Shown here: positions 11,321 to 64,000 of the stretch, piece after piece | How the letters are laid out: every line of letters starts with the position of its first letter | Position numbering within the stretch: position 1 is the stretch's first letter | Origin: a virus | Length of the DNA stretch: 64,000 bases | Virus record (IMG/VR): IMGVR_UViG_3300045988_125079 | Coordinates: 1-64,000 of that record | Reading direction: 5' to 3' (one strand) | Made by a program: the position numbers and the translations under genes | Notes under the pieces: generated by a model | Told to the model about the DNA's origin: nothing | Databases searched by the model: none | What the model saw: only the letters and a program-made list of their open reading frames with translations

Positions 11321-12010
11321 TTACTTCTCGACTGGTTTATATACATCTGCCAGCTTCGGGTGACGGCCACAGCAACGGCTACCTTCAGGACAGAACGGAT
11401 ACTTCGGATTAGCCTCACAGGAAGGAACCATCCACGCGGCCAACTCAGGACATACAGTGGCAACCTGTTCCTTAATAGCCATGAACATGGACCGAATTTC
11501 AGCTTGAGCACGGGTACATAGCCGTAAGTGACTCATCTCGATCAACGACCGCGCATTGATTGTGACATAGAACTTAGTGCAGCACGCATTCGGCAGAACA
11601 GCGCGAGCATCCTCGTTGGCTGCATTATGATATTTTTTTAGGATATAATAATCAGCTGCGATACTTCCCATCATATCTTTAAAAACATCTGCATCTTCAT
11701 CGCTGAACGGATTCACATAATCAAAGTTGTCCATAGCTACATATCTTTGTGACTGCACGCTCAAGCTGATGTGACGATGCCGACTTAACTGGGCCAGAAG
11801 CGCACGGCTCACACCGGTTACACAGAACGTAAACGAGATGTGTTCAAGCACAGAAACGTGATTCGTCGCCTTACATCCCCTTACGATTCGATAGTTTTCA
11901 GTCGGCTGAGAATCATAACAGACACTCGCTGCCAATTCTGCGATAGACAAAGGATTTTTATCTCCATCCTTTTTTACCGGCTGTGAATACGCTACTAGTT
12001 CGACTTTCAT
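11321..12010 (-). CDS. thyX: flavin-dependent thymidylate synthase
   Basis: RHRHISLSVQSQRY is the ThyX signature RHRxxSxxxxSxRY. Confidence 0.9.
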   Translation of the reverse strand: MKVELVAYSQPVKKDGDKNPLSIAELAASVCYDSQPTENYRIVRGCKATNHVSVLEHISFTFCVTGVSRALLAQLSRHRHISLSVQSQRYVAMDNFDYVNPFSDEDADVFKDMMGSIAADYYILKKYHNAANEDARAVLPNACCTKFYVTINARSLIEMSHLRLCTRAQAEIRSMFMAIKEQVATVCPELAAWMVPSCEANPKYPFCPEGSRCCGRHPKLADVYKPVEK

Positions 12011-32019: not shown

Positions 32020-32095
32020 TGGCACGCCTGTTTCGATTCGAACGAAAATCCACTGGGTTTAGAGCCCATTCCTTTACCAATTAAGGTACAGACGC
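32020..32095 (-). tRNA. suppressor tRNA, anticodon CUA (reads UAG), CCA encoded
   Basis: Hand fold of 76 nt: GCGUCUG UA CCUU AAUUGGUA AAGG A AUGGG CUCUAAA CCCAG UGGAU UUUCG UUCGAAU CGAAA CAGGCGU G CCA. U33 and A37 are present. One A27-G43 mismatch. Confidence 0.8.
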
Positions 32096-53585: not shown

Positions 53586-53849
53586 TTACAATAACGAGTG
53601 ACAAGTTAGCCGCTTAGAATTCTCAAACATATCATCAGACCACAGCCAATTCATAGTATCTTCTTTAAGCTGATATCGGTCTTCTCTATATCCACCAATT
53701 GTCACAATTTTCCCGCAGAATTTTTTCATGTCTGAAACAAATCCAACTTTAATATCAGGGCATGGCCCAGATCGCATGCTATATATTTTCAGTTGTTCTA
53801 AATTCTGTTTTACACGCACCCTATCCCCAGGTTTGTAGCGATATTCCAT
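53586..53849 (-). CDS. CxSLL-tail SH3-like small protein, paralog 1
   Basis: MEYRYKPGDRVRV ... WLWSDDMF ... CHSLL-stop. ATG at 53849 forms a TAATG overlap. Confidence 0.7.
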   Translation of the reverse strand: MEYRYKPGDRVRVKQNLEQLKIYSMRSGPCPDIKVGFVSDMKKFCGKIVTIGGYREDRYQLKEDTMNWLWSDDMFENSKRLTCHSLL

Positions 53850-54022
53850 TATGATTCCCCATTCGTCATGTTCCTTCCACAATGAGGGCAGAACCGAGAT
53901 AAATGTTCATAATAATGTTGTGCTAAAATGTTATAGCGACAATCAGCGTCGTATCCACATTTTTCACAAAAATGCCATCCGTTTTCATCTTCCACCCATG
54001 TAGAAATATCGTTCTCGTTCAT
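53849..54022 (-). CDS. small zinc-ribbon protein (57 aa)
   Basis: Hand translation gives MNENDISTWVEDENGWHFCEKCGYDADCRYNILAQHYYEHLSRFCPHCGRNMTNGES. Confidence 0.4.
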   Translation of the reverse strand: MNENDISTWVEDENGWHFCEKCGYDADCRYNILAQHYYEHLSRFCPHCGRNMTNGES

Positions 54023-54031
54023 AGAATCTCC

Positions 54032-54298
54032 TTATAATAATGATTTGCAAGATAACAGATTTGCTAAGCCTAAAAACATCTCATCTGTCCATAGGATATT
54101 GTTTTGAGCTTCTTCTATGACATATCGATTTAAAACATACCCCATGACCGTCACAGTTTTCCCCTCAAAAGGTTTTCTTGCTTTAAAAGATCTTTTTACG
54201 ACAACTCCAAAATCTTGGGATAACATCTTATAATTATGACCTTCTTCGAAGCAATCTATCACGCGAACATGGTCTCCGGGTTTATATTGATATCCCAT
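54032..54298 (-). CDS. CxSLL-tail SH3-like small protein, paralog 2
   Basis: MGYQYKPGDHVRV ... ILWTDEMF ... CKSLL-stop. AAAGGAGAG RBS. Confidence 0.7.
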   Translation of the reverse strand: MGYQYKPGDHVRVIDCFEEGHNYKMLSQDFGVVVKRSFKARKPFEGKTVTVMGYVLNRYVIEEAQNNILWTDEMFLGLANLLSCKSLL

Positions 54299-54308
54299 AA
54301 TCTCTCCT

Positions 54309-54575
54309 TTACAGCAGTGACCGACACGTAAAAGGATTAGCCAGACCGACAAACATATCATCAGACCAAATAGTGTCTTTATTTGACTCTTCGATCATGT
54401 ATCCGCCCAGTCTATATCCGGAAATCGTTACAACTTTCCCAGCAAGACGTTTTCTTGTCGGCAACGACACTCCGATTGTCAGAATGCTTTTACCAGAAGA
54501 CATATAATGGTTTTTCCCTGGTTCAAATTTATCTATCACGCGAACTCTATCCCCAAGCTTATATTTGTAATCCAA
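54309..54575 (-). CDS. CxSLL-tail SH3-like small protein, paralog 3
   Basis: MDYKYKLGDRVRV ... TIWSDDMF ... CRSLL-stop. Confidence 0.7.
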   Translation of the reverse strand: MDYKYKLGDRVRVIDKFEPGKNHYMSSGKSILTIGVSLPTRKRLAGKVVTISGYRLGGYMIEESNKDTIWSDDMFVGLANPFTCRSLL

Positions 54576-56645
54576 TTAAATCACCACTTTCAGAACTCGC
54601 TCAGTAGCTCCCTGCACCTTGACAATGAAGGAGTCATGCTTTGTCTCAGAGAAACCAACGCCAGACAGCTGGTCATCGACAGACTGGACCGCCATCTGAG
54701 AACCGAGAGCTTCAAACACCCGCTTATGCTGCAGAAGTTCTGCTTTCAGAAATTCGTTGTAGAATCCGTTCGGCTTTTCAGGGTTGACACAATCCTTCAG
54801 CATAAAGAAGTAGTGACGGTTGCCGTTTCCGGTCTGCTCGTCCCAGTAGTTTGGAGAGTACATGGCCACAGAAACAGGAACGAACTGGTTGGAATTCACA
54901 CTCCAGATTTCGCGGGTGCTGGTAGAACTGGGCAGCTGCTCCTTGATAGAGAACTTGCCATCCTTCAGCGTGACCTTTGCCACGGCGACATTCTGACCCT
55001 GATGCAGCGGCTTATCGTAGTTAAACGAGTAGATGTTGCCATCGAACTCGATCTCAGCACGGAAACCGGTTTTTCCGCCACGACCAGCGAAACAATGAAC
55101 ATAGAAACTGTATTCGCCCTCCTTCATCTTTTTGATATCAGGCCAGGTGATGTTCTCGACTGCGACACGATTACGACCAGGCTGCATGATGTCAACATCC
55201 AGAACACCGCCCGTAGTGTAATTACGTTTTGCGCCAAAATAGATGTGGTTCTTATCGGGTTCAATGCAATGAGCATCCTCATCGTTTTCGTCCCACTCGC
55301 ACGACATATCATTCCACTGAATAGAGAAACGCAGAACGCCGTCGATTTTACCGCCAGCATTTTTGACGTTCTCCCGGATCTGGCTGTCAGTCACGTTACC
55401 CGTATATGCCCAACTAAAACCGTTCGCCCACTTGAACATAGATGGCGCAGCCTTATCCTGCGGCGCAATCAGAGACACCATATTCTTCTCGAAACGATTC
55501 TCCATGAACAGTTCCAGCCCAGTCGCAGTCGGAAGCACGTCCTTGATGAACTTGTCGATGCCGATTTCCTCTGCACGACCAAACTTCTTAGGATCAATCG
55601 CAACAGTCTTAGCCATTGCTTCAAACGGATTTGTAGCACCAGCAATACGAGGAGCAGCGTCACGATTACAGAACAGGATATTGTTGGCAGTGATATCGTC
55701 CAGAGTAGCAAACCGACGACCCAGACTGTTCATATAACCCAGCTCAGTGACGGTTTTCTGTGCATCCTCCAGCATCTTCTTGGTGAAAATCGCCTTGGGA
55801 CGCTTATAGTTAGCTGGTGCAACCACCTTTTCAAAAGCAGTCACAGCAGAATCCACATCCATACCTTCACTCAGATTAATAAGCAGAGTACCGATTGCAG
55901 TGTTACGAATACGAAGCTGTCCCATATCGCCCCATGCCGGTGCCAGCCAAACATAAGCGGCCTTGTTCTCAGCCGGAGTATTGTCATATTCAATCTTGTT
56001 AGTCTTAAATACCTTGACGGCGTTTTCAAATTCCTTACCGCGATACAAACTATTCTGTGCAATCAGCTCCAGAACAGTATCAACAGCATCCATGGTCAGT
56101 TCTTCCAGAGAACGCTTGTATACGTTTGCGGAATCACGCCACTGAGCCATCTTGGTAGCCACATCATCAGGCCGCACAACGAAACGCTGCGGAATCTTGA
56201 CTGCGAAATGATCCCAAGTACGCACATCCTTGTGGTTTTCATCGTACTCATAGTTCATCTCGGTGCCGAACATATTACCAGAACCGATCATATTGCGACT
56301 GACAAAGTACGGATTCACAATAGTGCGGCTCTTCACATAAGCATCCAGAGCGTCCACAACAGGCTGATACTTGGCAGACTTTGCATCGAAATTCCACACA
56401 GTAATCATTTTTCCATCATCAAACGCCACCAGCTTGCCGATATTCTTCACAAAACGGCGGCAGCAGGAACAATCATACTCACGGCGCTTACGGAACAGCT
56501 CATTCATACCGGCCGGGAAGCTGTCAAGATACAGATTGTACAGTTCATCCTCGTCTGCATCGGTGATAAACAGTGGATTCTCACCCTTCACCATCTCATT
56601 GAAGTGGTCCTGCAGAAGTGCGCGAAATTCCTTAAAATCAGACAT
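54576..56645 (-). CDS. large hypothetical protein (689 aa), compositionally G/C-shifted
   Basis: Uninterrupted 689-aa ORF. N-terminal REYDCSCCRRF motif. No family recognised. The antisense strand is also stop-free, which I read as a codon-bias artefact. Confidence 0.6.
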   Translation of the reverse strand: MSDFKEFRALLQDHFNEMVKGENPLFITDADEDELYNLYLDSFPAGMNELFRKRREYDCSCCRRFVKNIGKLVAFDDGKMITVWNFDAKSAKYQPVVDALDAYVKSRTIVNPYFVSRNMIGSGNMFGTEMNYEYDENHKDVRTWDHFAVKIPQRFVVRPDDVATKMAQWRDSANVYKRSLEELTMDAVDTVLELIAQNSLYRGKEFENAVKVFKTNKIEYDNTPAENKAAYVWLAPAWGDMGQLRIRNTAIGTLLINLSEGMDVDSAVTAFEKVVAPANYKRPKAIFTKKMLEDAQKTVTELGYMNSLGRRFATLDDITANNILFCNRDAAPRIAGATNPFEAMAKTVAIDPKKFGRAEEIGIDKFIKDVLPTATGLELFMENRFEKNMVSLIAPQDKAAPSMFKWANGFSWAYTGNVTDSQIRENVKNAGGKIDGVLRFSIQWNDMSCEWDENDEDAHCIEPDKNHIYFGAKRNYTTGGVLDVDIMQPGRNRVAVENITWPDIKKMKEGEYSFYVHCFAGRGGKTGFRAEIEFDGNIYSFNYDKPLHQGQNVAVAKVTLKDGKFSIKEQLPSSTSTREIWSVNSNQFVPVSVAMYSPNYWDEQTGNGNRHYFFMLKDCVNPEKPNGFYNEFLKAELLQHKRVFEALGSQMAVQSVDDQLSGVGFSETKHDSFIVKVQGATERVLKVVI

Positions 56646-56934
56646 TGTTATTCTCCTTTGCTTTCATATAATTTTTGAGAAAAATACTCAAAAGTTCATC
56701 GGTGACTTCAAATCCTTGCCAGATTCGAGAGCTCTTATCTGTTCCAACTTGAGCATATAAATTTGTATTGCAATCAACCTCAATTGTAGAATCCGGATAT
56801 TTTTCAATCTCGTCATACTCATCAATTGCACTATTATTTATATAAAGATCAGCCTCATTTCTGCTATCAAAAAAACGAGGGAATTCGCACGATCCTTCAG
56901 AATCATATTCAAAAACACACCAGATCTTGTTCAT
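56638..56934 (-). CDS. hypothetical acidic protein
   Basis: Co-directional 98-aa ORF. Confidence 0.45.
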   Translation of the reverse strand: MNKIWCVFEYDSEGSCEFPRFFDSRNEADLYINNSAIDEYDEIEKYPDSTIEVDCNTNLYAQVGTDKSSRIWQGFEVTDELLSIFLKNYMKAKENNNV

Positions 56935-56943
56935 ATAACCACC

Positions 56944-57210
56944 TCATAATAATGACTTGCATCTAAACTGATGAGTTATTTTTTCAAACATTTCATCGCA
57001 CCAGAGCCAATTACACTCTTTTATTTTATACGATCCAAAAGATGAAATATGGTCAATATGAACTAATTTCCCACGCATTGCCATCATCTCTTCAATAACA
57101 TAATCGCTTTCCTGTTCAGCATATGGCCCAGATTTCATACAATAAAGATGACCCATACTTAAATCTTTACGGACACGAACTGTATCTCCAGGCTTATATA
57201 GATAATCCAT
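56944..57210 (-). CDS. CxSLL-tail SH3-like small protein, paralog 4
   Basis: MDYLYKPGDTVRV ... WLWCDEMF ... CKSLL-stop. AGGAG RBS. Confidence 0.7.
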   Translation of the reverse strand: MDYLYKPGDTVRVRKDLSMGHLYCMKSGPYAEQESDYVIEEMMAMRGKLVHIDHISSFGSYKIKECNWLWCDEMFEKITHQFRCKSLL

Positions 57211-57221
57211 ATTTTCACTCC

Positions 57222-57482
57222 TCACAAGAGAGACTTACATACAATTCGACCCTCCGGTTCAAACATTTCATCTGTCCAATGCCAATTAATTTCGTTTAAG
57301 AGATATTGACCGCATGAAAATCCCTTGATATGGACAAACTGACCACGGAATTTCATCATATCGTCATTGGTGCTATTTGAACCATACTTGTAATCAGGGC
57401 CAGATTTCATACGGTACGATTGTTTGGTACTCAAATCGGCTCGAACCCGAACTCTCTGTCCAACTTTATATTTGTAATCCAT
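57222..57482 (-). CDS. CxSLL-tail SH3-like small protein, paralog 5
   Basis: MDYKYKVGQRVRV ... WHWTDEMF ... CKSLL-stop. Confidence 0.7.
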   Translation of the reverse strand: MDYKYKVGQRVRVRADLSTKQSYRMKSGPDYKYGSNSTNDDMMKFRGQFVHIKGFSCGQYLLNEINWHWTDEMFEPEGRIVCKSLL

Positions 57483-57490
57483 ATTTCACC

Positions 57491-57763
57491 TCAAAGAAGA
57501 GACTTGCATGTAAGTGGCGTTAACGGTTCAAACATTTCATCGACGAAATAATTGCACTTACCATCTTCGATGATCTTGTACTTTCCATTTGCTTTATGAG
57601 AAATATGAACTATCTTTCCTGCCCAATTTGTTCTAATGCTGTATGTAGCGTAAGTGCTTGCATATCCTGGACCAGACTGCATTTGATATACATGTCCACC
57701 TTCAAGATGCTGCTTTACTTTAACAGCCTGTCCATTCCTGTATTTATATTTACTTTTCGACAT
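57491..57763 (-). CDS. CxSLL-tail SH3-like small protein, paralog 6
   Basis: KYKYRNGQAVKV ... YFVDEMF ... CKSLL-stop. Confidence 0.7.
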   Translation of the reverse strand: MSKSKYKYRNGQAVKVKQHLEGGHVYQMQSGPGYASTYATYSIRTNWAGKIVHISHKANGKYKIIEDGKCNYFVDEMFEPLTPLTCKSLL

Positions 57764-57783
57764 TTTCTTTTACCTCCCAAAAT

Positions 57784-57876
57784 TTACAAAAGACTCGTAC
57801 AGTAAATAAATTTTGCAGGCACGAGCATTCCATCACGTACTTGTACCGCATCGCCAACTTTATACATACACGCCAT
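57784..57876 (-). CDS. 30-aa miniature member of the CxSLL family
   Basis: Hand translation gives MACMYKVGDAVQVRDGMLVPAKFIYCTSLL-stop. It keeps only the N-terminal YKVGD.V.V strand and the C-x-S-L-L tail. Starts 4 nt after the recombinase stop. Confidence 0.4.
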   Translation of the reverse strand: MACMYKVGDAVQVRDGMLVPAKFIYCTSLL

Positions 57877-57879
57877 TTT

Positions 57880-58686
57880 TCATTCTCCATCAAACCAATC
57901 AGAAACTCGATCCGACATCCTGTCCATCTTTTCCTGTGCAGCCTTACAATACCTCATTGTGATTCTTTCATCGCTATGATTCAATTTCATCTGGAGAAGC
58001 TGCAGAGTATTTCCTTCGTCTTGAGTCCCCTCTGCACTCTTTAGCGCTGCCATTGCATATGTTTTTCGCATTGTATGTGTAGACAATTCAATATCAAGGC
58101 CGCACATTTTACCGGCATTTTTCAGGATACCATATATCGATCGAACATTAAGCGAACCGCCCTTCTGGCTCTGGAATAAAAACACATCTCGTGAGACTTC
58201 AAAATGCTGCTCGTCGTAATATTCTTTCAAAACTTCGGCAGCCATTTTAGGAATTTTACAGATATTTCGCTTTCCTGTTTTCTGCTCAAAAACATCAAGA
58301 TGGCTCTTTACTTTACCATTTAGTGTATAAACATCTTCCGTCTTTAGTTTTACAAGATCGCTGCAACGAAGACCGACAGAACAACCAAGAATGAACAGCG
58401 TTTTATTCCTGATTCTATATCCGACCTTACCGTTTTTACCAAGATAATCTACTACTTTTTTGAACTCCTCTTTAGATTGAATCGGACTAGCCGGAGTCGG
58501 CTTCTTTCGTCCATCGCAAGTGTAAAGACTTGTTGTTTTCGTCTTCTTTTGTTTTTTTCGAGCAGCTGTTACGGCGTCACGAATCATCTGCTGCAATTCA
58601 TCTTCAGATAACGTAATATGAGCTTCGTCAGAAGAATTAGGAAATATAATCAGCTTATCTTTTTCTTTTACCGCTGCTTCTGCCAT
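57880..58686 (-). CDS. tyrosine recombinase, catalytic domain only (no core-binding domain)
   Basis: GLRCSDL (Arg), HTMRKTY (HxxR), LNHSDERITMRY (His/Tyr). 268 aa with a Lys-rich N-terminal tail. Confidence 0.8.
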   Translation of the reverse strand: MAEAAVKEKDKLIIFPNSSDEAHITLSEDELQQMIRDAVTAARKKQKKTKTTSLYTCDGRKKPTPASPIQSKEEFKKVVDYLGKNGKVGYRIRNKTLFILGCSVGLRCSDLVKLKTEDVYTLNGKVKSHLDVFEQKTGKRNICKIPKMAAEVLKEYYDEQHFEVSRDVFLFQSQKGGSLNVRSIYGILKNAGKMCGLDIELSTHTMRKTYAMAALKSAEGTQDEGNTLQLLQMKLNHSDERITMRYCKAAQEKMDRMSDRVSDWFDGE

Positions 58687-58713
58687 ATTGTAGCCTCCTT
58701 ATATGTGTTACAT

Positions 58714-58968
58714 TTACAGCAAACTTCGACACGAAAACGGTGCAGCACCTTCAAGCATTCCGTCCGACCAGAGATAGTTTCCATCATCTATATCGAGAAT
58801 ATAAAATCCACTTTTGTATCCTACGATTTTAGTAGTCATCCCTTCATAACTCGACATATGTAAACCAAGTCCGCAGTAATTCCCAGGACACGGTCCAGAT
58901 ACCATTGGAAGATTTTTTACCGGAGATTCTATTTTGACTTTTTGTCCAATTTTATATTTGTAATTCAT
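58714..58968 (-). CDS. CxSLL-tail SH3-like small protein, paralog 7
   Basis: MNYKYKIGQKVKI ... YLWSDGML ... CRSLL-stop. Confidence 0.65.
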   Translation of the reverse strand: MNYKYKIGQKVKIESPVKNLPMVSGPCPGNYCGLGLHMSSYEGMTTKIVGYKSGFYILDIDDGNYLWSDGMLEGAAPFSCRSLL

Positions 58969-59039
58969 ACTATACCTTTCTTTCACACTCTCTTCTAATT
59001 GGTTGGAGGCCAGAGAGGAGTTCAAAGCGAGAGGATTTA

Positions 59040-59270
59040 ATTTGATTGGCGAAGCGATAAATTAAATACGAACGATTTGAATCCGCGCGTCCGCCGAAGG
59101 ATCAAGGGCGACTCCAGCTTCGCTGGGTCGCCTGCGATCCGCAGGTCGGACCTGGCTGAATGCCAATGCGGGTGGAAGATCCCCGATGCGCTCCTCCCGG
59201 AGGGCGAGCGAGGGGATCGACATGCCTTACCATTATCTCAACAGTTGGAATCTCCAGCTGCCTAAATTTC
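59040..59270 (-). ncRNA. GC-rich hairpin-dense non-coding block 3' of the RT cassette
   Basis: No minus-strand ORF. Perfect stems: CCUGCG-GAU-CGCAGG (59131-59145), GGCGAC/CCAGC-GAA-GCUGG/GUCGCC (59107-59132), GAUCCCC...GGGGAUC (59178-59218). Confidence 0.4.
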
Positions 59271-59299
59271 ATTTAGTATTCAAGAGAGATCAAACAGTT

Positions 59300-59662
59300 T
59301 TACTTTTCAACAATAGAATCCGAATCATCTATTTCTTCTGACTCTTCATCGAGAGCGTCATCTAGTTCCAATAAATACTGATTCAAGGCGTCTCGGCCAG
59401 CCTCAAGCATTGCTCGATGGATTTCAGGTTCTGCATCCTTTAAAAGATCCCCACAAAGTGCAAGATCCTCAGCTTCAAACCCCGTAGATTCCATATCCTT
59501 GATGGCATCCGCGACATCTGAAGGGGCCCAAAATACCATAGCACGATGTTCGTCTTCATCGAGGACTTCAACATCGTCATTTACCACTGCTCTCACATAA
59601 TCAGCGACATTTTCAAGCAGCTCAGGTGGCACAGAACCGTCACGACACATAATTTCAATCAT
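59300..59662 (-). CDS. highly acidic 120-aa protein
   Basis: AAGGAGG RBS. ATG at 59662 lies 13 nt after the RT stop. About 37 D/E versus 8 K/R by hand count. Confidence 0.55.
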   Translation of the reverse strand: MIEIMCRDGSVPPELLENVADYVRAVVNDDVEVLDEDEHRAMVFWAPSDVADAIKDMESTGFEAEDLALCGDLLKDAEPEIHRAMLEAGRDALNQYLLELDDALDEESEEIDDSDSIVEK

Positions 59663-59675
59663 AAATCCTCCTTTG

Positions 59676-60908
59676 TTATGCGGCATCTTTTGGACGAAGA
59701 TCGTCTTTAATCATAGCCATCACATCAACATGGTATTTGTTGTTGGCTTTTGAAATCAACGCTTTGATTTTGTCTTTTTCTACCATTTTATAATAGCTGA
59801 TAAGACCATTAAGCTCCTGAACGTCTTCAATTGTCCAAGGAGCATTTTCCTTTTTACAGCGGATATAGTTGGACATCATAATCTTGAATGTCTTGATGTT
59901 ACGCCATCCAACCGTGATTTCATTGTTCTGATTCCACATCAAGCCGAGCACCCAGTTTTTACTCGAATGACGATTGCCGTAATGAGTTTTTTCTTCATTC
60001 AGAGTAAATGGAGCATGGATATACGCCAGAATATTTTTGATTACATCCTGCATCTCCATATAGTCAAAACTCAAATAACAACTAATCGTGATATCATCCG
60101 CATATCTTGTATAAGTAAAATCACGAGTAATGCCATCTTTCATTTTGAAACCATGACGAATTTTTCGACTCAGCAAATGATCAAATGGAATCATCATGAC
60201 ATTCGTAAGCCAAGGACTCAAGGGGCTTCCCTGCGGTAATCCATTGCGAAGAAAAGCAATCTTTAATGCATCACTCAACGCTTCATGGCCGCCGAATGGA
60301 TCTTGCATGATAAGAGCGAACGGATAAATCACACTCAACATTCCCATAACAAACTCTGGATTAGAGCTGGGGAAAAATCCGTGAAAGTCGAATTTTACAG
60401 ACCAGTTATTTTCATAAATAACCTGCTCTTTTTCTCCTGTTGTCGGGTTCGTTTTAGTCCGCACATGCCCTTCCTGATGTTTTTTCACAGCAGTCAAAGT
60501 AGACCGATGCGGAACATAAGCATGTGCCGCAGTATGATAGTCTGCAAGCATAAAGCTTTTTAACAACGTTTGCAGTTCGTTCAATGCGTCACTAAGGATT
60601 TTGTCTGGAGCATCAATTGGCCGCATGCCACCTGTTTTTTTGGGAATTTCATAGTGAGTATAGTGAACAGACATATCCGGTTCAGATTCGAGCTGTTCGT
60701 ATTTCTTATTAAACGCTTCGAGTTCTCGAATCATTCGGTTAATATCTGTCATGGCTCTCAAACGTGGGGTAAGTTCGTCTCTACAAACAGTCACAGTCGA
60801 AGTAACATCTTCTCGATATTTCAATTTCTCAGACTCGATAATGCCTGCAAGAATCTCATCGATTGTGATCTGTCTCGTTTTAGGGGCTGCTTTGTATGTA
60901 ATATACAT
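59676..60908 (-). CDS. stand-alone reverse transcriptase (retron/UG-DRT-like size and motifs)
   Basis: IPKKTGGMRPIDAP, KFDFHGFFPS, GLPQGSPLSPWLTN, RYADDITIS, LNEEKT, VLGL. 410 aa with no extra nuclease or maturase domain visible. Confidence 0.9.
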   Translation of the reverse strand: MYITYKAAPKTRQITIDEILAGIIESEKLKYREDVTSTVTVCRDELTPRLRAMTDINRMIRELEAFNKKYEQLESEPDMSVHYTHYEIPKKTGGMRPIDAPDKILSDALNELQTLLKSFMLADYHTAAHAYVPHRSTLTAVKKHQEGHVRTKTNPTTGEKEQVIYENNWSVKFDFHGFFPSSNPEFVMGMLSVIYPFALIMQDPFGGHEALSDALKIAFLRNGLPQGSPLSPWLTNVMMIPFDHLLSRKIRHGFKMKDGITRDFTYTRYADDITISCYLSFDYMEMQDVIKNILAYIHAPFTLNEEKTHYGNRHSSKNWVLGLMWNQNNEITVGWRNIKTFKIMMSNYIRCKKENAPWTIEDVQELNGLISYYKMVEKDKIKALISKANNKYHVDVMAMIKDDLRPKDAA

Positions 60909-60929
60909 ATTATCTTCCTCTTATCGTGA

Positions 60930-61165
60930 TCTAAATAGGTCTCAGCTCATTCCAAGCCTGATCGCAGTGCGGATCTTGACTATGTTGTTGAGCGATACAT
61001 CGTAAAATTTCACCCTGCAGTGACGCTGATGACGTCGACTACCTGGAGGATGGCCGTTGCCTCCGCGGTACCTCCATGGCCATCGGCGGCTCGCGGGGCA
61101 CCTCCCTCGTTCTACCTTTGCGAACCAATCGGATCTCCGGTTGGACTGTGGTTAACAGTAATTCA
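60930..61165 (-). ncRNA. GC-rich structured leader upstream of the RT (candidate RT-associated ncRNA)
   Basis: About 235 nt between the E1 stop and the RT RBS with no minus-strand ORF. GAUGGCC/GGCCAUC (61049-55 / 61078-84). Competing GGAGG/CCUCC pairings (61044-49, 61061-65, 61071-76). GAUC-CGC-ACU-GCG-AUC hairpin (60960-60975). Confidence 0.45.
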
Positions 61166-61185
61166 TCACGATTTTATTTCAAATT

Positions 61186-61860
61186 TTAACTTGCAATAAC
61201 ACTATGCTGATAAGGATCAACAACAATCATCTTGTTGACTTTATTCTTCCCCATAGCAAATCCGATGAAATTCGTAACAGCCTGACAGCAGATTTCACGA
61301 ACTGTCGGAGCAAGTCCCTGAACAACGCCACATGCAGAAACGGGCGTACTTGCCGTGGCTTCTTCGTGAGTGAAATCCATAGAATTTTTGAGATTTTCCT
61401 TCATGGATTCATCCATCCAATCAGCCGCCCAACACTGAGCGTCGTAAAGACCGGTTCGGATATCAAACACGCCCTTAATATTGGGATTATATTTGTTCTT
61501 CTCCATGAAATCTTTTCGAATTTCAATGTTGTCAACAGCCAGGAAAACATATCCCTGAACCTGTTCACCATGCCAACCATTGGGTTTGATGATGATATCG
61601 TCCTTCGCGTCAGGATTAATCATGCAGATGAGATTTGCAACAGCTTCAACCTTCGGATGACCAATATCCTGCTGGAAAAACATTTGGTTCACGATATTCT
61701 TCGATTCAACGATGTCCATATCCCAAAGCGTAAAATTAGTGAGGCCGTATCGAGCCAACAGCTCAGCCACAGTCGAACCAACAGAACCACAGCCAATGAT
61801 ATGCACCTGGCCACGAATTTCTTTAGGATTGAAAATCATCTCAATCTTGCTCAGATTCAT
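61186..61860 (-). CDS. ThiF/MoeB/E1-like adenylyltransferase (minimal, 224 aa)
   Basis: VHIIGCGSVGSTVAELLARYGL..FTLWDMDIVESKNIVNQ...DIGHPKVEAV gives a GxGxxG Rossmann fold plus the Asp and Arg/Lys pattern of E1-like enzymes. Confidence 0.8.
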   Translation of the reverse strand: MNLSKIEMIFNPKEIRGQVHIIGCGSVGSTVAELLARYGLTNFTLWDMDIVESKNIVNQMFFQQDIGHPKVEAVANLICMINPDAKDDIIIKPNGWHGEQVQGYVFLAVDNIEIRKDFMEKNKYNPNIKGVFDIRTGLYDAQCWAADWMDESMKENLKNSMDFTHEEATASTPVSACGVVQGLAPTVREICCQAVTNFIGFAMGKNKVNKMIVVDPYQHSVIAS

Positions 61861-61877
61861 TTGTTTATCCTTTCTTT

Positions 61878-62840
61878 TTAATCCTGAAATGCATCAATGT
61901 CGTTATAATACGGCCAGCAACTCGAATTACCGACTGCTTCCAATTCTTCAGGATGCTCTTCGTAATACTTGGCGAGATTGCTTTTTGCCGGCACTTTCGG
62001 AGCGGCGCTGCCAGTTACCGTCTTCTTCGACTCTTCTTTTTTTGTCCCGACCAACGGGGTTTTCGGGTACGTAACGGTGGAGCCGTATACCTTACTTGCA
62101 CCCGCGCCTCCTGCAGAATATCCTCCATTGCTTCCAATTGCGTTTGCGCTGTAATTGGTATTTCCGGTCCAATTCCCTGTCGCGCCATATACAGGTGTTG
62201 TGGCAATTTTGTTCTTAACAATCTGGTCTGCGTTTTCGAGAAATCGAGAAGAATCAAAATCACCAACGGTGACATTCACATCCTCTCCTTCATAGATAAC
62301 GTTTGCCTTCAGATCAATAACCCGAACATTATACTCACGCCGCTTGTTCCAAATCATAAAGATTTCATAGCTATCCATCGGCATAGTATCAACGAAACGC
62401 CACTGGTCTTCCATATCTGTAGCACTCGGGGTGACTCCCATATTGACATGAGAATGACCTTGAAAATGCAGACTGTTAAAATCCTCATCGGGCAGCTTCG
62501 CGTACCACATAGAATACTCTCCCCAATCGGTATTCACGGTCGCTCCCGTGACAGTCTGGGGATAAAGCAGAATCTTAGTAATCTGAAAGTGAGTATCATC
62601 GATTCGATTCACCGTGCCACACCACGCGACTTCGGACGAGAAGTGGTTAATCAGAGCGAACATCTGATGATATGCTTCGTAGGTGAAATTCACTGTGATT
62701 GCATTCTTCTGCTTTACTGCAGGAAATTCTGCGCTATATGTAAACTTATCACTGCGGATATAATTCATAGCCATCAGCTGTTCATAAAGCTTCTGTGCTG
62801 CGTTCTTTGCGTACTCCTGTGAAATCTTAATCGGCTTCAT
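61878..62840 (-). CDS. JAB/MPN (JAMM) metallopeptidase with G/S/T/Y-rich C-terminal extension
   Basis: Upstream Glu (SSEVAWCG) and GHSHVNMGVTPSATD, which is HxHx7Sx2D. Confidence 0.8.
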   Translation of the reverse strand: MKPIKISQEYAKNAAQKLYEQLMAMNYIRSDKFTYSAEFPAVKQKNAITVNFTYEAYHQMFALINHFSSEVAWCGTVNRIDDTHFQITKILLYPQTVTGATVNTDWGEYSMWYAKLPDEDFNSLHFQGHSHVNMGVTPSATDMEDQWRFVDTMPMDSYEIFMIWNKRREYNVRVIDLKANVIYEGEDVNVTVGDFDSSRFLENADQIVKNKIATTPVYGATGNWTGNTNYSANAIGSNGGYSAGGAGASKVYGSTVTYPKTPLVGTKKEESKKTVTGSAAPKVPAKSNLAKYYEEHPEELEAVGNSSCWPYYNDIDAFQD

Positions 62841-62854
62841 TTATATCTCCCCTT

Positions 62855-64000
62855 TCAAGCAGCCGCCGTTTCCTTTTCTTTCTTTAAGATTTCGAACACC
62901 TCTGCGACTGTATAAAGATTACCAGCATCGTCCTCAAGATATTTCTTGGTAGAAATGGTTCGTTCATTGAACAGATCATGCATCAATTCGGAAACCACCG
63001 TAGAATCACCCCAGTTCAGGTAAGAACTGGAGCAGATAATAGTAGTAAGAGTCCCAATGAAATCATGATTCTGAGATAACGATTCAAAGGTCGCTTCATA
63101 GCCACCGTAGCAAGCATGGCGATCAATGTGCGGCTGACGGATACGATTTTCCATCATCTCCGGATGATCTTCCATATCACACTGAGTGACAACACGAACA
63201 CGATCATCAGAATTCACGCGCCATTCACAATATGTGCGGATCTTAAAGCGATGTTCTTTCCAAATAGCGCAGAAGAATTCTTTCGTTTCCTCAAAAGAGT
63301 ACGGGCTCTTCTGATAGATGTAGTTTCGTGCATCCCGTTTGTTCTCGACACTGTGCCGGAAAGCGCCTTCATCACAGTCATTCAAAAAGCCGGTGTAACC
63401 AACATACAGGTTGTCATCGCTCTTTCGGAGAAAGCTCAGAACTTTATTCGCTTTCAGATAATTTACAATAGCTGCCTCGTCTTCGTCTGTACAGCAAGCA
63501 CGATTACGAATTGCTTCAAGACGAATCTGCGCATCGTCCAGCTTGCTCCGATACTGGCGAATCTGATCGAAAGTATCCGTGATCCGACGTTCATAGCTGC
63601 GGATTTCTTCTTCTCCGCGACTAATAATCGAGTCATAATTGGCACTGCAGAATCCCTTCAGGCTTGCAGCCAATTTCTTTCCATAGAAATCGCCAGCGTC
63701 ATAGATCTTCTGCATGGCATCGCAGAACTTGGCATCCTCTTGATTGTATAAAAACTGGATAATGGCCTTTTCTTCTTCTGTAATCGGCACTTTCTTAAAG
63801 CACCAAGGAGTCAGACGGGGAAAACAACTCGCCGCCATATGCATAGCCTGCATAATTTTTTGACGGCCAACAAAGATGATAGTTCCCTTCTTTTTCTCAT
63901 TCTGGTAAACCGTTACATCACCAGCCTTATCAATGTACTGTGAGACATCATCAAGTTTCTTCCAGCCGAGCTTCTTATAATCCTCGTTATATTCTTCGCT
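62855..64000 (-). CDS. hypothetical protein, ORF open to the window edge (5' partial)
   Basis: The frame of 62855..63853 continues without a stop through 64000 (…GDVTVYQNEKKKGTIIFVGRQKIMQAMH…). No family recognised. Confidence 0.5.
   Translation of the reverse strand, partial: SEEYNEDYKKLGWKKLDDVSQYIDKAGDVTVYQNEKKKGTIIFVGRQKIMQAMHMAASCFPRLTPWCFKKVPITEEEKAIIQFLYNQEDAKFCDAMQKIYDAGDFYGKKLAASLKGFCSANYDSIISRGEEEIRSYERRITDTFDQIRQYRSKLDDAQIRLEAIRNRACCTDEDEAAIVNYLKANKVLSFLRKSDDNLYVGYTGFLNDCDEGAFRHSVENKRDARNYIYQKSPYSFEETKEFFCAIWKEHRFKIRTYCEWRVNSDDRVRVVTQCDMEDHPEMMENRIRQPHIDRHACYGGYEATFESLSQNHDFIGTLTTIICSSSYLNWGDSTVVSELMHDLFNERTISTKKYLEDDAGNLYTVAEVFEILKKEKETAAA

What the first reader, a model, noticed from the sequence alone, without database searches (positions are those of the whole stretch)
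61186..64000. Minimal E1-like adenylyltransferase plus JAB peptidase pair without a recognisable ubiquitin-like protein or E2
- **E1-like protein.** 61186..61860 is a 224-aa ThiF/MoeB/E1-type Rossmann protein (IIGCGSVGS...DMD...N..Q...DIG..K).
- **JAB peptidase.** 61878..62840 carries the full JAMM motif (E...HSHx7SxxD), followed by a low-complexity G/S/T/Y tail.
- **Missing partners.** E1+JAB pairs are the enzymatic core of bacterial ubiquitin-like conjugation modules such as CBASS Cap2/Cap3, Bil/Bub operons and PRTRC cassettes. No beta-grasp protein ending in GG and no E2 fold is evident among the neighbours I can read.
- **Upstream gene.** The upstream ORF (62855 onward) is open at the window edge and unassignable.
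- **Possible role.** In a phage, this pair could reverse or hijack host Ubl-based immunity, or modify phage proteins.
Basis: partly seen in the sequence, partly recalled or inferred. Interest (0 to 1): 0.65.

Follow-up and report, generated by a model that had tools for sequence, protein, structure and literature searches.

The report
Phage ubiquitin-like module beside a retron
The E1-like enzyme and JAB peptidase are real, and they belong to a conserved module of large gut phages that also holds a ubiquitin-like protein ending in Asn-Ala (just past the window edge), two proteins of unknown fold and a retron-type reverse transcriptase, a combination I could not find described.

Summary
**Observation.** On the minus strand, 61186-61860 encodes a ThiF/E1-type adenylyltransferase. 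61878-62840 encodes a very divergent JAMM/JAB peptidase whose E..HxHx7SxxD residues are invariant in homologues.

**The pair is not minimal.**
- A 95.6%-identical phage contig shows what lies beyond coordinate 64000, upstream on the same strand:
  - the rest of the edge gene, a 490-aa protein ('p490');
  - a 76-aa protein, a confident beta-grasp model matching SUMO and ubiquitin;
  - a 145-aa protein ('p145').
- Ubl family members end at a conserved K-x-D-N-A. After it comes nothing, a 1-4-residue variable tail, or an in-frame p145 domain. This is the signature of a processed Ubl, with Asn-Ala in place of Gly-Gly.
- Directly downstream of E1 lie a retron-like ncRNA and a retron-type RT.
- p145, Ubl, p490, JAB and E1 occur in 31 of 31 non-redundant loci and the RT in 29 of 31. 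No other gene family exceeds 16 of 31.

**Gaps.** No E2/UBC fold was found. p490 has no known relative but keeps an invariant His/Cys pair.

**Interpretation.** This is most likely a phage-borne, E2-less Ubl processing, activation and removal system coupled to a retron. Its biological role is unknown. No description was found in the papers searched.

The parts
62855..64000 (-). C-terminal 381 codons of 'p490'. This is a ~490-aa protein of unknown fold that runs off the window edge; its start is about 327 nt beyond 64000. Its C-terminal domain carries the invariant motif P-x-P-H400-I-D-x3-C406.
   Evidence: - No stop codon up to the window edge.
- Full length is 490 aa in L003:7534-9006.
- AF2 model has pLDDT 87.7.
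- No PDB match, best E 0.38. In BFVD the only match is an uncharacterised phage protein.
- No Pfam hit.
- 1828 representatives at 50% identity.
- Invariant D32, P174, E186, H400 and C406 across sequences down to 19% identity.
61878..62840 (-). Divergent JAMM/JAB metallopeptidase of 320 aa. The core spans roughly residues 50-200. It is followed by a low-complexity tail and a short conserved C-terminal motif.
   Evidence: - E70, H129, H131, S139 and D142 are invariant.
- The family profile hits Rpn11 with the catalytic residues aligned, E 0.055.
- 8 of 26 members hit Prok-JAB weakly.
- 652 homologues, none carrying a precomputed Pfam domain.
- Only 14 nt separate it from p490 and 17 nt from E1.
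61186..61860 (-). Minimal E1-like (ThiF/MoeB-type) adenylyltransferase of 224 aa. It is an adenylation domain only, with no Cys domain, no UFD and no CxxC zinc motifs.
   Evidence: - Pfam ThiF 72.7 bits.
- NCBIfam and PADLOC E1 models match residues 16-86 only.
- Family invariants are HIIGCGxxGST, DxDxVExxNxxNQMF, K70, VDxIxxR, and a single invariant Cys, C177, in 'SAC'.
- The canonical Arg of the N-x-x-R motif aligns with Gln (alignment to UBA5).
60923..61172 (-). Retron-like non-coding RNA.
- a1 arm at 61165-61172 (ATCGTGAT).
- A conserved G at 61164.
- Two 5' hairpins.
- A variable region.
- a2 arm at 60923-60930 (ATCACGAT), ending 15 nt before the RT start codon.
   Evidence: - A perfect long-range inverted repeat of at least 8 bp occurs in 81 of 102 distinct loci, against 11 of 102 shuffles. 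The arm sequences covary between clades.
- The same a1-G-hairpin-hairpin layout appears in very different sequences.
- The second hairpin has 9 predicted pairs, 7 of them with compensatory changes.
- On its own the window sequence is not more stable than shuffles, z -1.28.
- No Rfam match.
59676..60908 (-). Retron-type reverse transcriptase of 410 aa with a YADD motif.
   Evidence: - Pfam RVT_1 2.9e-16.
- NCBIfam retron St85 family 1.6e-43, 149 bits, below the 235-bit cut-off.
- PADLOC RT_II-A 1.3e-38 and RT_XIII 1.3e-36.
- Present next to the module in 29 of 31 non-redundant loci.
- Also present in three contexts of p490 homologues, one of them about 21% identical to p490.
59300..59686 (-). 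Acidic 128-aa protein that overlaps the RT stop codon. It is clade-specific, so its membership in the module is uncertain.
   Evidence: - Conserved after the RT in the window's wider clade.
- Not found in L045-type loci.
- No family hit.

Best explanation
The E1 and JAB genes are two parts of a conserved phage module, transcribed on the minus strand. Its order is p145, Ubl, p490, JAB, E1, retron-like ncRNA, RT.

**Proposed mechanism.**
1. The 76-aa beta-grasp protein is made as a precursor. Its conserved ...K-x-D-N-A end is followed by nothing, by a short variable tail (Arg in this phage), or by a fused p145 domain in some relatives.
2. The JAB metallopeptidase trims whatever follows the Ala. 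It later removes the Ubl from its targets.
3. The minimal E1 adenylates the exposed C-terminal Ala with ATP. It may hold the Ubl on its single invariant Cys177.
4. The activated Ubl is passed to a target without a canonical E2. Transfer is either direct, as in archaeal SAMP/UbaA, or through p490. The invariant His400/Cys406 pair of p490 makes it the best candidate for a non-UBC carrier or ligase.
5. p145 is the best candidate substrate or partner. It is fused to the Ubl in several lineages and has one invariant Lys.
6. The retron (RT, ncRNA and presumably msDNA) is functionally coupled to this machinery. By analogy with retron-effector systems it acts as a sensor or regulator.

**Shown computationally.**
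- The domain identities of E1, JAB, Ubl and RT.
- The conserved Asn-Ala end with variable tails and fusions.
- The conserved gene set.
- The ncRNA features.

**Inferred.**
- Every biochemical step.
- The roles of p490 and p145.
- The coupling to the retron.
- The biological purpose. Candidates are competition with other phages or mobile elements, or manipulation of host or phage proteins.
For: **Component identities.**
- E1.
- JAB with invariant catalytic residues.
- Ubl:
  - AF2 model with pLDDT 87.2 and beta-beta-alpha-beta-beta-3_10-beta topology;
  - Foldseek full-length matches to SUMO1, ubiquitin, Caldiarchaeum ubiquitin and ThiS, TM about 0.7, probability 1.0;
  - weak profile hits to SAMP2, PF1061 and ubiquilin.

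**Processing signature.**
- K71 and A75 are invariant and N74 nearly so.
- Many members stop exactly after NA. Others add R, LAA, VVM, TGMN, C, A, AQ or RVIV.
- In five loci with distinct sequences the p145 domain follows NA in frame.
- The same pattern, a conserved reactive residue plus up to nine variable residues removed by the operon's JAB DUB, was shown experimentally for BilA/BilC (10.1101/2023.09.26.559546, read).

**Module conservation.**
- 137 loci have p145-Ubl-p490-JAB-E1-RT.
- 8 loci have the fused Ubl-p145 variant.
- L166 has the RT between JAB and E1.
- In 31 non-redundant loci only these families are universal. The next best family is in 16 of 31, and the other high-count clusters are antisense shadows.
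- Three distant p490 homologues, one of them about 21% identical to p490, have the same neighbours.
- Gaps of 14 and 17 nt between p490, JAB and E1 fit one operon.

**Retron features.**
Against: - No biochemical evidence exists for any step.
- The JAB assignment rests on motif conservation and sub-threshold profile hits. No structure model of it was made.
- The E1 family has Gln where all characterised E1-like enzymes I know have the ATP-phosphate-binding Arg (N-x-x-R). Its adenylation activity therefore cannot be taken for granted.
- A C-terminal Asn-Ala has no precedent known to me as the activated end of a Ubl.
- p490 shows no similarity to E2 or E3 folds, so its carrier role is a guess based on two invariant residues.
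- Co-occurrence of the RT with the module could partly reflect shared descent within one large group of phages rather than function.
  - Two of 31 non-redundant loci show no RT. In L149 none lies within about 6 kb of the E1 gene.
Confidence: 0.55

Rival explanations
1. Sulfur-carrier system. The Ubl would be a ThiS/MoaD/TtuB-like carrier. The minimal E1 would adenylate and thiocarboxylate it for a thiolation reaction, for example of tRNA, a nucleotide or a cofactor. JAB would only mature the carrier, as QbsD or Mec+ do.
For: - The E1 is of the short MoeB/ThiF type, without a Cys domain and without an E2.
- By my reading of the motif, its only invariant Cys sits where ThiF Cys184 and MoeB Cys187 sit. 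This is an inference, not aligned here.
- The best NCBIfam hit is ThiF PRK08644.
- The Ubl profile's nearest sequence hits include SAMP2 and PF1061.
- JAMM trimming of a sulfur carrier is established for QbsE/QbsD (own knowledge).
Against: - All known sulfur carriers end in Gly-Gly. This family ends in Asn-Ala.
- None of the following is among the conserved neighbours: rhodanese, cysteine desulfurase, ThiG/ThiH, MoaE, or an Ncs6/TtuA-type gene. The universal partners are p145, p490 and an RT.
- The scores against the ThiF and MoeB equivalog models are far below their cut-offs.
Confidence: 0.12
2. Counter-defence tool. The JAB peptidase, with or without the E1, would act on host Ubl-type immunity. 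It would strip Bil-type Ubl from phage tail proteins or cleave CD-NTase conjugates of type II CBASS.
For: - The module sits in a variable, accessory-looking part of the phage genome. In relatives that region also holds NAD-salvage genes (NAMPT, NMN transporter) and an RNA ligase.
- The E1 N-terminal region scores best against Cap2-type E1-E2 models in PADLOC.
Against: - A stand-alone deconjugase would need none of the following, yet all are strictly conserved together:
  - its own Ubl with a processing signature;
  - an E1;
  - p145 and p490;
  - a retron.
- The JAB is very far from Cap3-type JABs, scoring E 0.03 on a single PADLOC JAB model.
Confidence: 0.1
3. Two unrelated neighbours. The Ubl/E1/JAB genes and the retron would be separate functional units. 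They would travel together only because these phages share ancestry and gene order.
For: - All loci found come from what may be one very broad group of large phages of gut and rumen Clostridia and Bacteroidales.
- L149 keeps the Ubl module with no RT within about 6 kb.
- Extra genes of 83-259 aa are inserted between E1 and RT in some lineages.
Against: - Flanking genes turn over completely between clades, with no other family above 16 of 31 loci. The RT stays in 29 of 31.
- The RT remains adjacent in the three contexts of distant p490 homologues, one of which is about 21% identical to p490.
- In L166 the RT lies inside the module, between JAB and E1.
Confidence: 0.18
4. Divergent PRTRC-type cassette of mobile elements (ParB-related, ThiF-related cassette), adopted by phages.
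For: - It shares a small Ubl-like protein, a JAB protein and a short ThiF protein in one operon, together with uncharacterised partners.
- The E1 gives a weak hit to TIGR03736 PRTRC_ThiF, E 5.1e-6.
- The similarity in gene order is from my memory only.
Against: - The TIGR03736 score is 26 bits against a cut-off of 144.75, and it ranks below many other ThiF models.
- No PRTRC A, B, C, E or F model hits the JAB protein, p490 (tested only as its 332-aa window fragment and as the full-length L003 copy), the Ubl or p145, even at E up to 1.
- No ParB was seen in the annotated contexts.
- PRTRC is not known to include an RT.
Confidence: 0.05

Closest known systems
BilABCD (Bil) ubiquitin-like anti-phage systems of bacteria
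   Same: - One operon encodes a beta-grasp Ubl, an E1 and a JAB deubiquitinase.
- The Ubl is made with a conserved reactive residue followed by a short, non-conserved tail. In Bil the operon's own JAB removes that tail (10.1101/2023.09.26.559546).
   Different: - Bil has a UBC-type E2 (BilB) and an E1 with a catalytic Cys domain. Here there is no E2, and the E1 is a 224-aa adenylation domain only.
- The reactive end is Gly in Bil and Asn-Ala here.
- Bil is a host defence system, whereas this module is phage-encoded.
- Bil has no RT, p145 or p490.
Archaeal SAMP/UbaA/HvJAMM1 and Thermus TtuB/TtuC systems (E2-less Ubl conjugation)
   Same: A small beta-grasp protein, a short MoeB-type E1 and a JAMM peptidase work without a known E2 or E3. 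These are the nearest mechanistic precedent for E1-only conjugation (own knowledge; PMC4443979 appears in the list).
   Different: - Those Ubls end in Gly-Gly and double as sulfur carriers.
- They are cellular housekeeping systems, not operon-linked to an RT.
- The E1 here lacks the canonical Arg of the N-x-x-R motif.
Type II CBASS Cap2/Cap3
   Same: - An E1-type adenylation domain and a JAB peptidase act on a protein C-terminus.
- The E1 N-terminal 70 residues score best against Cap2 models.
   Different: - There is no CD-NTase.
- Cap2 is an E2-E1 fusion of about 600 aa.
- The substrate here is a dedicated beta-grasp protein.
Retrons (ncRNA + RT + effector; types I-XIII of Mestre et al. 2020)
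   Same: - The RT scores best against retron RT models.
- An upstream ncRNA is bounded by a1/a2 inverted repeats, has a conserved G after a1 and has covarying msr-like hairpins.
- Accessory genes are tightly linked to it.
   Different: - None of the 13 described types has an E1, JAB or ubiquitin-like accessory gene. The words ThiF and ubiquitin do not occur in PMC7736814.
- The RT is below the cut-off of the NCBIfam retron families.
- msDNA production is unproven.
- The element is carried by large lytic-looking phages rather than by bacterial defence islands.
Lambda/T1 tail assembly proteins TAPI (Ubl) and TAPK (JAB + NlpC/P60)
   Same: This is a phage-encoded Ubl next to a JAB peptidase. The Ubl is fused to a C-terminal domain that the JAB was predicted to release (PMC1779556).
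   Different: - That system has no E1, sits in the tail gene cluster, and its Ubl ends in Gly.
- Here an E1, an RT and two novel proteins are present, and no tail genes are adjacent.

Membership tests
ThiF/MoeB/E1 adenylyltransferase superfamily (PF00899) | Match to the family model above the curated threshold, over the whole adenylation domain | tested here: met
   72.7 bits against a cut-off of 28.1. Residues 18-209 align to profile positions 22-212 of 238.
ThiF/MoeB/E1 adenylyltransferase superfamily (PF00899) | Nucleotide-binding GxGxxG loop, the DxD...N motif, the conserved Lys, and the Mg-binding Asp of the 'xDN' motif | tested here: met
   HIIGCGxxGST, DxDxVExxN, K70 and VDxIxxR are invariant in 39 family members.
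ThiF/MoeB/E1 adenylyltransferase superfamily (PF00899) | Arg of the N-x-x-R(Q) motif, which contacts the ATP phosphates | tested here: not met
   The position is Gln throughout the family (N-I-V-N-Q-M-F). It aligns with Arg of the UBA5 'NMNRLFF' motif (alignment). The consequence for activity is unknown.
Canonical E1 (Uba1, BilD, Cap2 type) | Catalytic Cys domain or loop that forms the Ubl thioester, and an E2-binding domain | tested here: not met
   At 224 aa the protein has no inserted Cys domain and no UFD. The only invariant Cys is C177 in 'SAC'. Whether it forms a thioester cannot be tested here.
JAMM/MPN+ (JAB) metallopeptidases | Catalytic signature E ... H-x-H-x7-S-x2-D | tested here: met
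   E70, H129, H131, S139 and D142 are invariant in 26 homologues at 32-68% identity. They align with the Rpn11 catalytic residues.
JAMM/MPN+ (JAB) metallopeptidases | Match to curated JAB models (PF01398, PF14464) at threshold, or an MPN fold | tested here: inconclusive
   - The window protein has no Pfam hit.
- 8 of 26 relatives hit Prok-JAB at a best E of 0.0098.
- PDB profile search gives Rpn11 at E 0.055.
- PADLOC JAB scores E 0.03.
Ubiquitin-like beta-grasp modifiers | Beta-grasp fold | tested here: met
   The AF2 model has pLDDT 87.2. There are 66 PDB matches at E<=0.001. The top ones are SUMO1, ubiquitin and Caldiarchaeum ubiquitin, with ThiS lower in the list; TM is about 0.7 for the top matches. 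The gene lies outside the window, at L003:7147-7377.
Ubiquitin-like beta-grasp modifiers | C-terminal Gly or Gly-Gly as the activated end | tested here: not met
   The conserved end is K-x-(D/S/E/N)-N-A. A75 is invariant and many members stop right after it.
Ubiquitin-like beta-grasp modifiers | Precursor form with a removable C-terminal extension | tested here: met
   Variable 1-4-residue tails and in-frame fusions to p145 start exactly after NA. Actual cleavage cannot be tested with these tools.
E2 / UBC conjugating enzymes | UBC fold with an HPN motif and a catalytic Cys, somewhere in the module | tested here: not met
   - The p490 model has no E2 among its top 50 listed PDB matches (of 159 at E up to 10), best E 0.38.
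- No Pfam Prok-E2 or UQ_con hit on p490, p145 or their neighbours.
- A non-UBC carrier is not excluded.
PRTRC cassette | Matches to the TIGR0373x/0374x models for proteins A, B, C, E, F, ThiF and ParB | tested here: not met
   Only ThiF gives a hit, 26 bits against a cut-off of 144.75. Nothing hits the JAB protein, p490 (tested only as its 332-aa window fragment and as the full-length L003 copy), the Ubl or p145 at E up to 1. I could not fetch a real PRTRC locus for direct comparison.
Type II CBASS | A CD-NTase gene plus a Cap2 (E2-E1 fusion) and a Cap3 | tested here: not met
   No CD-NTase or effector model hit. The E1 matches only the adenylation part of the Cap2 models, residues 18-86.
Retrons | RT of the retron clade | tested here: inconclusive
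   The best hits are retron models: St85 family 1.6e-43, RT_II-A 1.3e-38 and RT_XIII 1.3e-36. The NCBIfam score of 149 bits is below the 235-bit cut-off. No phylogeny was made.
Retrons | Adjacent ncRNA bounded by a1/a2 inverted repeats, with a priming G at the end of a1 and structured msr hairpins | tested here: met
   - Inverted repeats of at least 8 bp occur in 81 of 102 loci against 11 of 102 shuffles, and the arms covary.
- A G follows a1 in the loci where the repeat finder placed a1 plausibly.
- One hairpin has 7 of 9 pairs with compensatory changes.
Retrons | Production of branched msDNA | not testable with these tools
   Needs RT-DNA detection in cells that express 59676-61172.

The most novel reading that the evidence does not exclude
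This would be a previously undescribed retron type carried by large gut and rumen phages. Its accessory module is a complete but unorthodox ubiquitin-like system with these parts:
- a Ubl activated at a C-terminal Asn-Ala instead of Gly-Gly;
- a minimal E1 that lacks the canonical ATP-binding Arg;
- a very divergent JAB;
- no UBC-type E2;
- two new protein families: p490 as a non-UBC Cys/His carrier or ligase, and p145 as the substrate.

Ubl conjugation would be switched by, or would act on, the RT-msDNA complex.
Probability: 0.4. Interest if true: 0.85.

Novelty: new variant of a known kind. Interest (0 to 1): 0.72.

Why it matters
**Links between known fields.** If the reading is right, it joins two active areas, bacterial and phage ubiquitin-like conjugation and retrons, in one genetic unit. 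It places that unit on the virus side of the conflict.

**New experimental handles.**
- It would provide a natural E2-less Ubl system with a non-glycine reactive end. That tests how general the Gly-Gly rule and the E1 Arg requirement are.
- It would assign a context to two large unannotated protein families. The p490 family alone has more than 1,800 clusters at 50% identity.
- It would add a new accessory module to the retron repertoire, which is of interest for retron-based genome-editing tools.

**Practical point for the scan.** The apparent 'missing Ubl' was an effect of the window edge.

Tried and rejected
**Family and structure searches that found nothing.**
- Curated libraries (Pfam, NCBIfam, PHROGs, PADLOC) gave nothing for p490 (the two NCBIfam hits on its window fragment, E 0.046 and 0.17, are far below cut-off), p145 and the Ubl. 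For JAB they gave only noise-level hits.
- Profile searches of p145, p490 and the Ubl against PDB sequences gave nothing meaningful for p145 and p490, only coiled-coil noise. The Ubl gave weak SAMP2 and ubiquilin hits.
- p490 as an E2 was rejected, as far as it could be tested:
  - Foldseek against PDB and BFVD;

**PRTRC.**
- The models do not hit.
- A tblastn of the E1 against plasmids, in search of a real PRTRC locus, led to a multiubiquitin/ThiF operon instead.
- Literature searches for 'PRTRC' mostly matched plasmid and promoter names.

**Non-coding regions.**
- The GC-rich stretch 59026-59300 was considered as the retron RNA. It is conserved only in the closest relatives.
- The conserved ncRNA is instead upstream of the RT.
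- Rfam gave nothing at permissive thresholds.

**Other ideas rejected.**
- The CxSLL ends as a DNA recombination site: rejected, because the codons vary synonymously.
- MccB-like peptide-nucleotide synthesis on the C-terminal Asn: considered. It is unlikely because A75 is invariant and is often the last residue, and because the E1 lacks the MccB peptide-clamp domain.

**Literature.** Searches linking retron or RT with ThiF, JAB or ubiquitin found nothing relevant.

Full report
**1. What is in the window**

All genes between 54 kb and 64 kb lie on the minus strand.

| Coordinates | Product | Key evidence |
|---|---|---|
| 62855 to beyond 64000 | 'p490', runs off the window | no stop codon up to 63997 |
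| 62840..61878 | JAB-like protein, 320 aa | see below |
| 61860..61186 | E1-like protein, 224 aa | see below |
| 61185..60909 | 277-nt spacer | holds the retron-like ncRNA (section 4) |
| 60908..59676 | reverse transcriptase, 410 aa | see below |
| 59686..59300 | acidic protein, 128 aa | overlaps the RT stop codon |

- Only 14 nt separate p490 from JAB, and 17 nt separate JAB from E1.
- **E1.** Pfam ThiF scores 72.7 bits against a cut-off of 28.1, over residues 18-209. Relatives among solved structures are UBA5, Uba1, TcdA, MccB, Cap2, MoeB and ThiF.
- **JAB.** The protein has no curated-family hit. It carries E70..H129-S-H131-x7-S139-x2-D142.
- **RT.** Its best scores are against retron models:
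  - NCBIfam St85 family 1.6e-43, below that model's cut-off;
  - PADLOC RT_II-A 1.3e-38 and RT_XIII 1.3e-36.

The window belongs to a large phage of the human gut.
- Its only relative in the phage GenBank collection is an unannotated faecal contig.
- It carries eight tRNAs, including one with a CTA anticodon.

**2. Checking the JAB call**

- 652 homologues were found, none with a precomputed Pfam domain. Almost all come from metagenomes.
- In 26 of them, down to 32% identity, the five JAMM residues are invariant. So are the motifs YPQ, TVxTD and NK.
- The family profile's five best PDB hits are all Rpn11, at E 0.055, with the catalytic Glu, His-x-His and Ser-x-x-Asp aligned.
- Eight of the 26 members hit Prok-JAB weakly.
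- I accept the JAB assignment. It is a very divergent branch, and its fold was not modelled.

**3. Beyond the window edge**

IMG/VR contig 3300045988_136856 (L003) is collinear with window 54001-64000 at 95.6% identity. Window coordinate 64000 corresponds to L003 7861.

L003 shows the following, all on the module's strand:
- p490 is 490 aa (L003:7534-9006).
- Upstream of it is a 76-aa ORF (L003:7147-7377).
- Further upstream is a 145-aa ORF, 'p145' (L003:6589-7026).
- Further still are three more CxSLL genes.

None of the 76-aa ORF, p145 and p490 hits Pfam or NCBIfam.

The 76-aa protein is a beta-grasp protein.
- Its AF2 model has pLDDT 87.2 and the beta-grasp strand and helix order.
- It matches SUMO1, ubiquitin and archaeal ubiquitin over its full length, and ThiS lower in the list. 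TM is about 0.7 for the top matches and probability is 1.0.

**4. The Ubl has a processing signature with Asn-Ala in place of Gly-Gly**

- Across 20 diverse members, K71 and A75 are invariant and N74 is nearly so.
- Many members stop directly after ...K-A-D-N-A.
- Others add R (this phage), LAA, VVM, TGMN, C, A, AQ or RVIV.
- In five loci with distinct sequences the p145 domain follows in frame, exactly after NA (for example ...VVKADNA|AVIKIVGG...).
- BilA shows the same pattern. A conserved reactive residue is followed by up to nine variable residues, and the operon's JAB protein BilC was shown to remove them (10.1101/2023.09.26.559546).
- The fusions also tie p145 functionally to the Ubl. 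p145 has a single invariant Lys, K42.

**5. The conserved unit includes a retron**

*Gene content.*
- HMMs built from the six families were run over about 175 fetched loci. These came from IMG/VR, from MAG contigs binned mostly to Clostridia and some to Bacteroidales, and from ENA and NCBI assemblies.
  - 137 loci have p145-Ubl-p490-JAB-E1-RT.
  - 8 loci have the fused variant.
  - Other loci are truncated at contig ends.
  - One locus (L166) has the RT between JAB and E1.
  - Two loci, one of them L149, have a duplicated p145-Ubl pair and no RT within the stretch held (about 6 kb in L149).
  - One locus (L177) is a decayed copy.
- In 31 loci that are non-redundant at 75% JAB identity, p145/Ubl, p490, JAB and E1 occur in all 31 and the RT in 29.
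  - The next gene family reaches only 16 of 31.
  - The other frequent clusters are antisense shadows of these genes.
- The p490 family has 1828 representatives at 50% identity, nearly all 460-510 aa long.
- Three distant members were looked up, one of them about 21% identical to the window protein. All three show the same order: a gene of about 133 aa, one of 75 aa, p490, a gene of about 300 aa, ThiF, then RVT_1. One of these contigs starts at the p490 gene, so the two upstream genes cannot be seen there.

*The ncRNA upstream of the RT.*
- A perfect long-range inverted repeat of at least 8 bp encloses about 250 nt in 81 of 102 distinct loci, against 11 of 102 shuffles. The arms differ between clades but stay complementary.
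- A G follows the 5' arm in the loci where that arm was placed plausibly. Two hairpins come next.
- The second hairpin has 7 of 9 pairs with compensatory changes.
- In the window the arms are at 61165-61172 and 60923-60930.
- These are the hallmarks of a retron msr-msd RNA. Production of msDNA is untested.

**6. What is missing or odd**

- No E2 was found.
  - The p490 model is confident (pLDDT 87.7).
  - It has no PDB relative (best E 0.38). In BFVD it matches only an uncharacterised phage protein.
  - Its profile does not match three eukaryotic E2s.
- Across p490 sequences down to 19% identity, only D32, P174, E186, H400 and C406 are invariant. H400 and C406 lie in a P-x-P-H-I-D-x3-C-x-G-G-Y motif. 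This suggests a thiol-based active site. It is the only basis for proposing p490 as the carrier or ligase.
- The E1 is an adenylation domain only. It has one invariant Cys (C177).
- The E1 has Gln where the N-x-x-R Arg of characterised E1-like enzymes sits.

**7. Interpretation**

The most economical reading is a self-contained, phage-encoded Ubl system.
- JAB matures the Ubl and removes it from targets.
- E1 activates the C-terminal Ala.
- Transfer occurs without a UBC-type E2, perhaps through p490.
- p145 is a partner or substrate.
- The system is coupled to a retron.

Rivals, each with its confidence in the Rival explanations section:
- a sulfur-carrier pathway, which conflicts with the non-GG end and the lack of any sulfur-transfer neighbour;
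- a counter-defence deconjugase, which would not need its own Ubl, E1 and RT;
- mere co-linearity of two unrelated units;
- a divergent PRTRC cassette, whose models do not hit.

**8. Novelty**

- The retron classification of Mestre et al. lists 13 types. None has E1, JAB or Ubl partners, and the words ThiF and ubiquitin do not occur in that paper.
- Full-text searches that combined retron or RT with ThiF, JAB or ubiquitin returned nothing relevant.
- Every component class is known: E1, JAB, beta-grasp Ubl and retron.
- The following appear new, so I rate this a new variant of a known kind:
  - the combination of these components;
  - the Asn-Ala reactive end;
  - the E2-less set-up with two unannotated families;
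  - the location in a phage.
- The biological role remains open.

Noticed in passing
window 53586-58968 (minus strand); also L003:5627-6358: Eight small ORFs of 30-109 aa, mostly SH3-like by sequence pattern, end in C-x-S-L-L-stop. Three more lie beyond the window edge. The motif's codons differ between copies, so the selection acts on the peptide end and not on a DNA site. They surround a 268-aa tyrosine recombinase (57880-58686). They are absent from distant loci that keep the Ubl/retron module.
   Followed up: partly
window 32020-32095 (minus strand): A tRNA with anticodon CTA (an amber suppressor, called tRNA-Pyl by ARAGORN) sits among eight tRNAs. This suggests TAG read-through or recoding in part of this phage genome. 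The module's ORFs contain no in-frame stop.
   Followed up: no
window 59026-59300 (minus strand): A GC-rich, strongly structured non-coding stretch lies downstream of the acidic 128-aa gene (MFE -96.6 kcal/mol, z -2.68). It is conserved only in the two closest contigs and has no Rfam match.
   Followed up: partly
window 54576-56645 (minus strand): A 689-aa protein (phrog_1735; Pfam DUF8224 on its homologue in L044) is conserved at 84-92% identity between clades. That is far more than its neighbours. Its function is unknown.
   Followed up: no
L045:7816-8436, L122:4945-5565, L123:5820-6440, L173, L169: These are natural in-frame fusions of the Ubl to the p145 domain, found in five loci with distinct sequences. 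In the unfused arrangement the gene order is reversed, with p145 before the Ubl.
   Followed up: yes
L177:6953-9504; L149:4855-10505; L166:5670-11616: These are variants of the module.
- L177 holds a fragmentary, decayed copy on a 244-kb Oscillospiraceae MAG contig.
- L149 has a tandem duplication of p145-Ubl and no RT within 6 kb.
- L166 has the RT between JAB and E1.
   Followed up: partly
L045:11590-12360, L180:11361-12140, L178:10329-10877 and 11572-11823, L181:3261-3605: Variable extra genes of 83-259 aa, with no family hit, are inserted between JAB and E1 or between E1 and RT in some lineages. They may be lineage-specific accessory parts of the module.
   Followed up: no
L044:17805-20801; L045:14235-15751: Related phages carry NAD-salvage genes (NAMPT/NAPRTase, an NMN transporter, a cytidylyltransferase-like gene) and an RNA ligase a few kb downstream of the module. 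This fits an accessory or counter-defence region of the genome.
   Followed up: no
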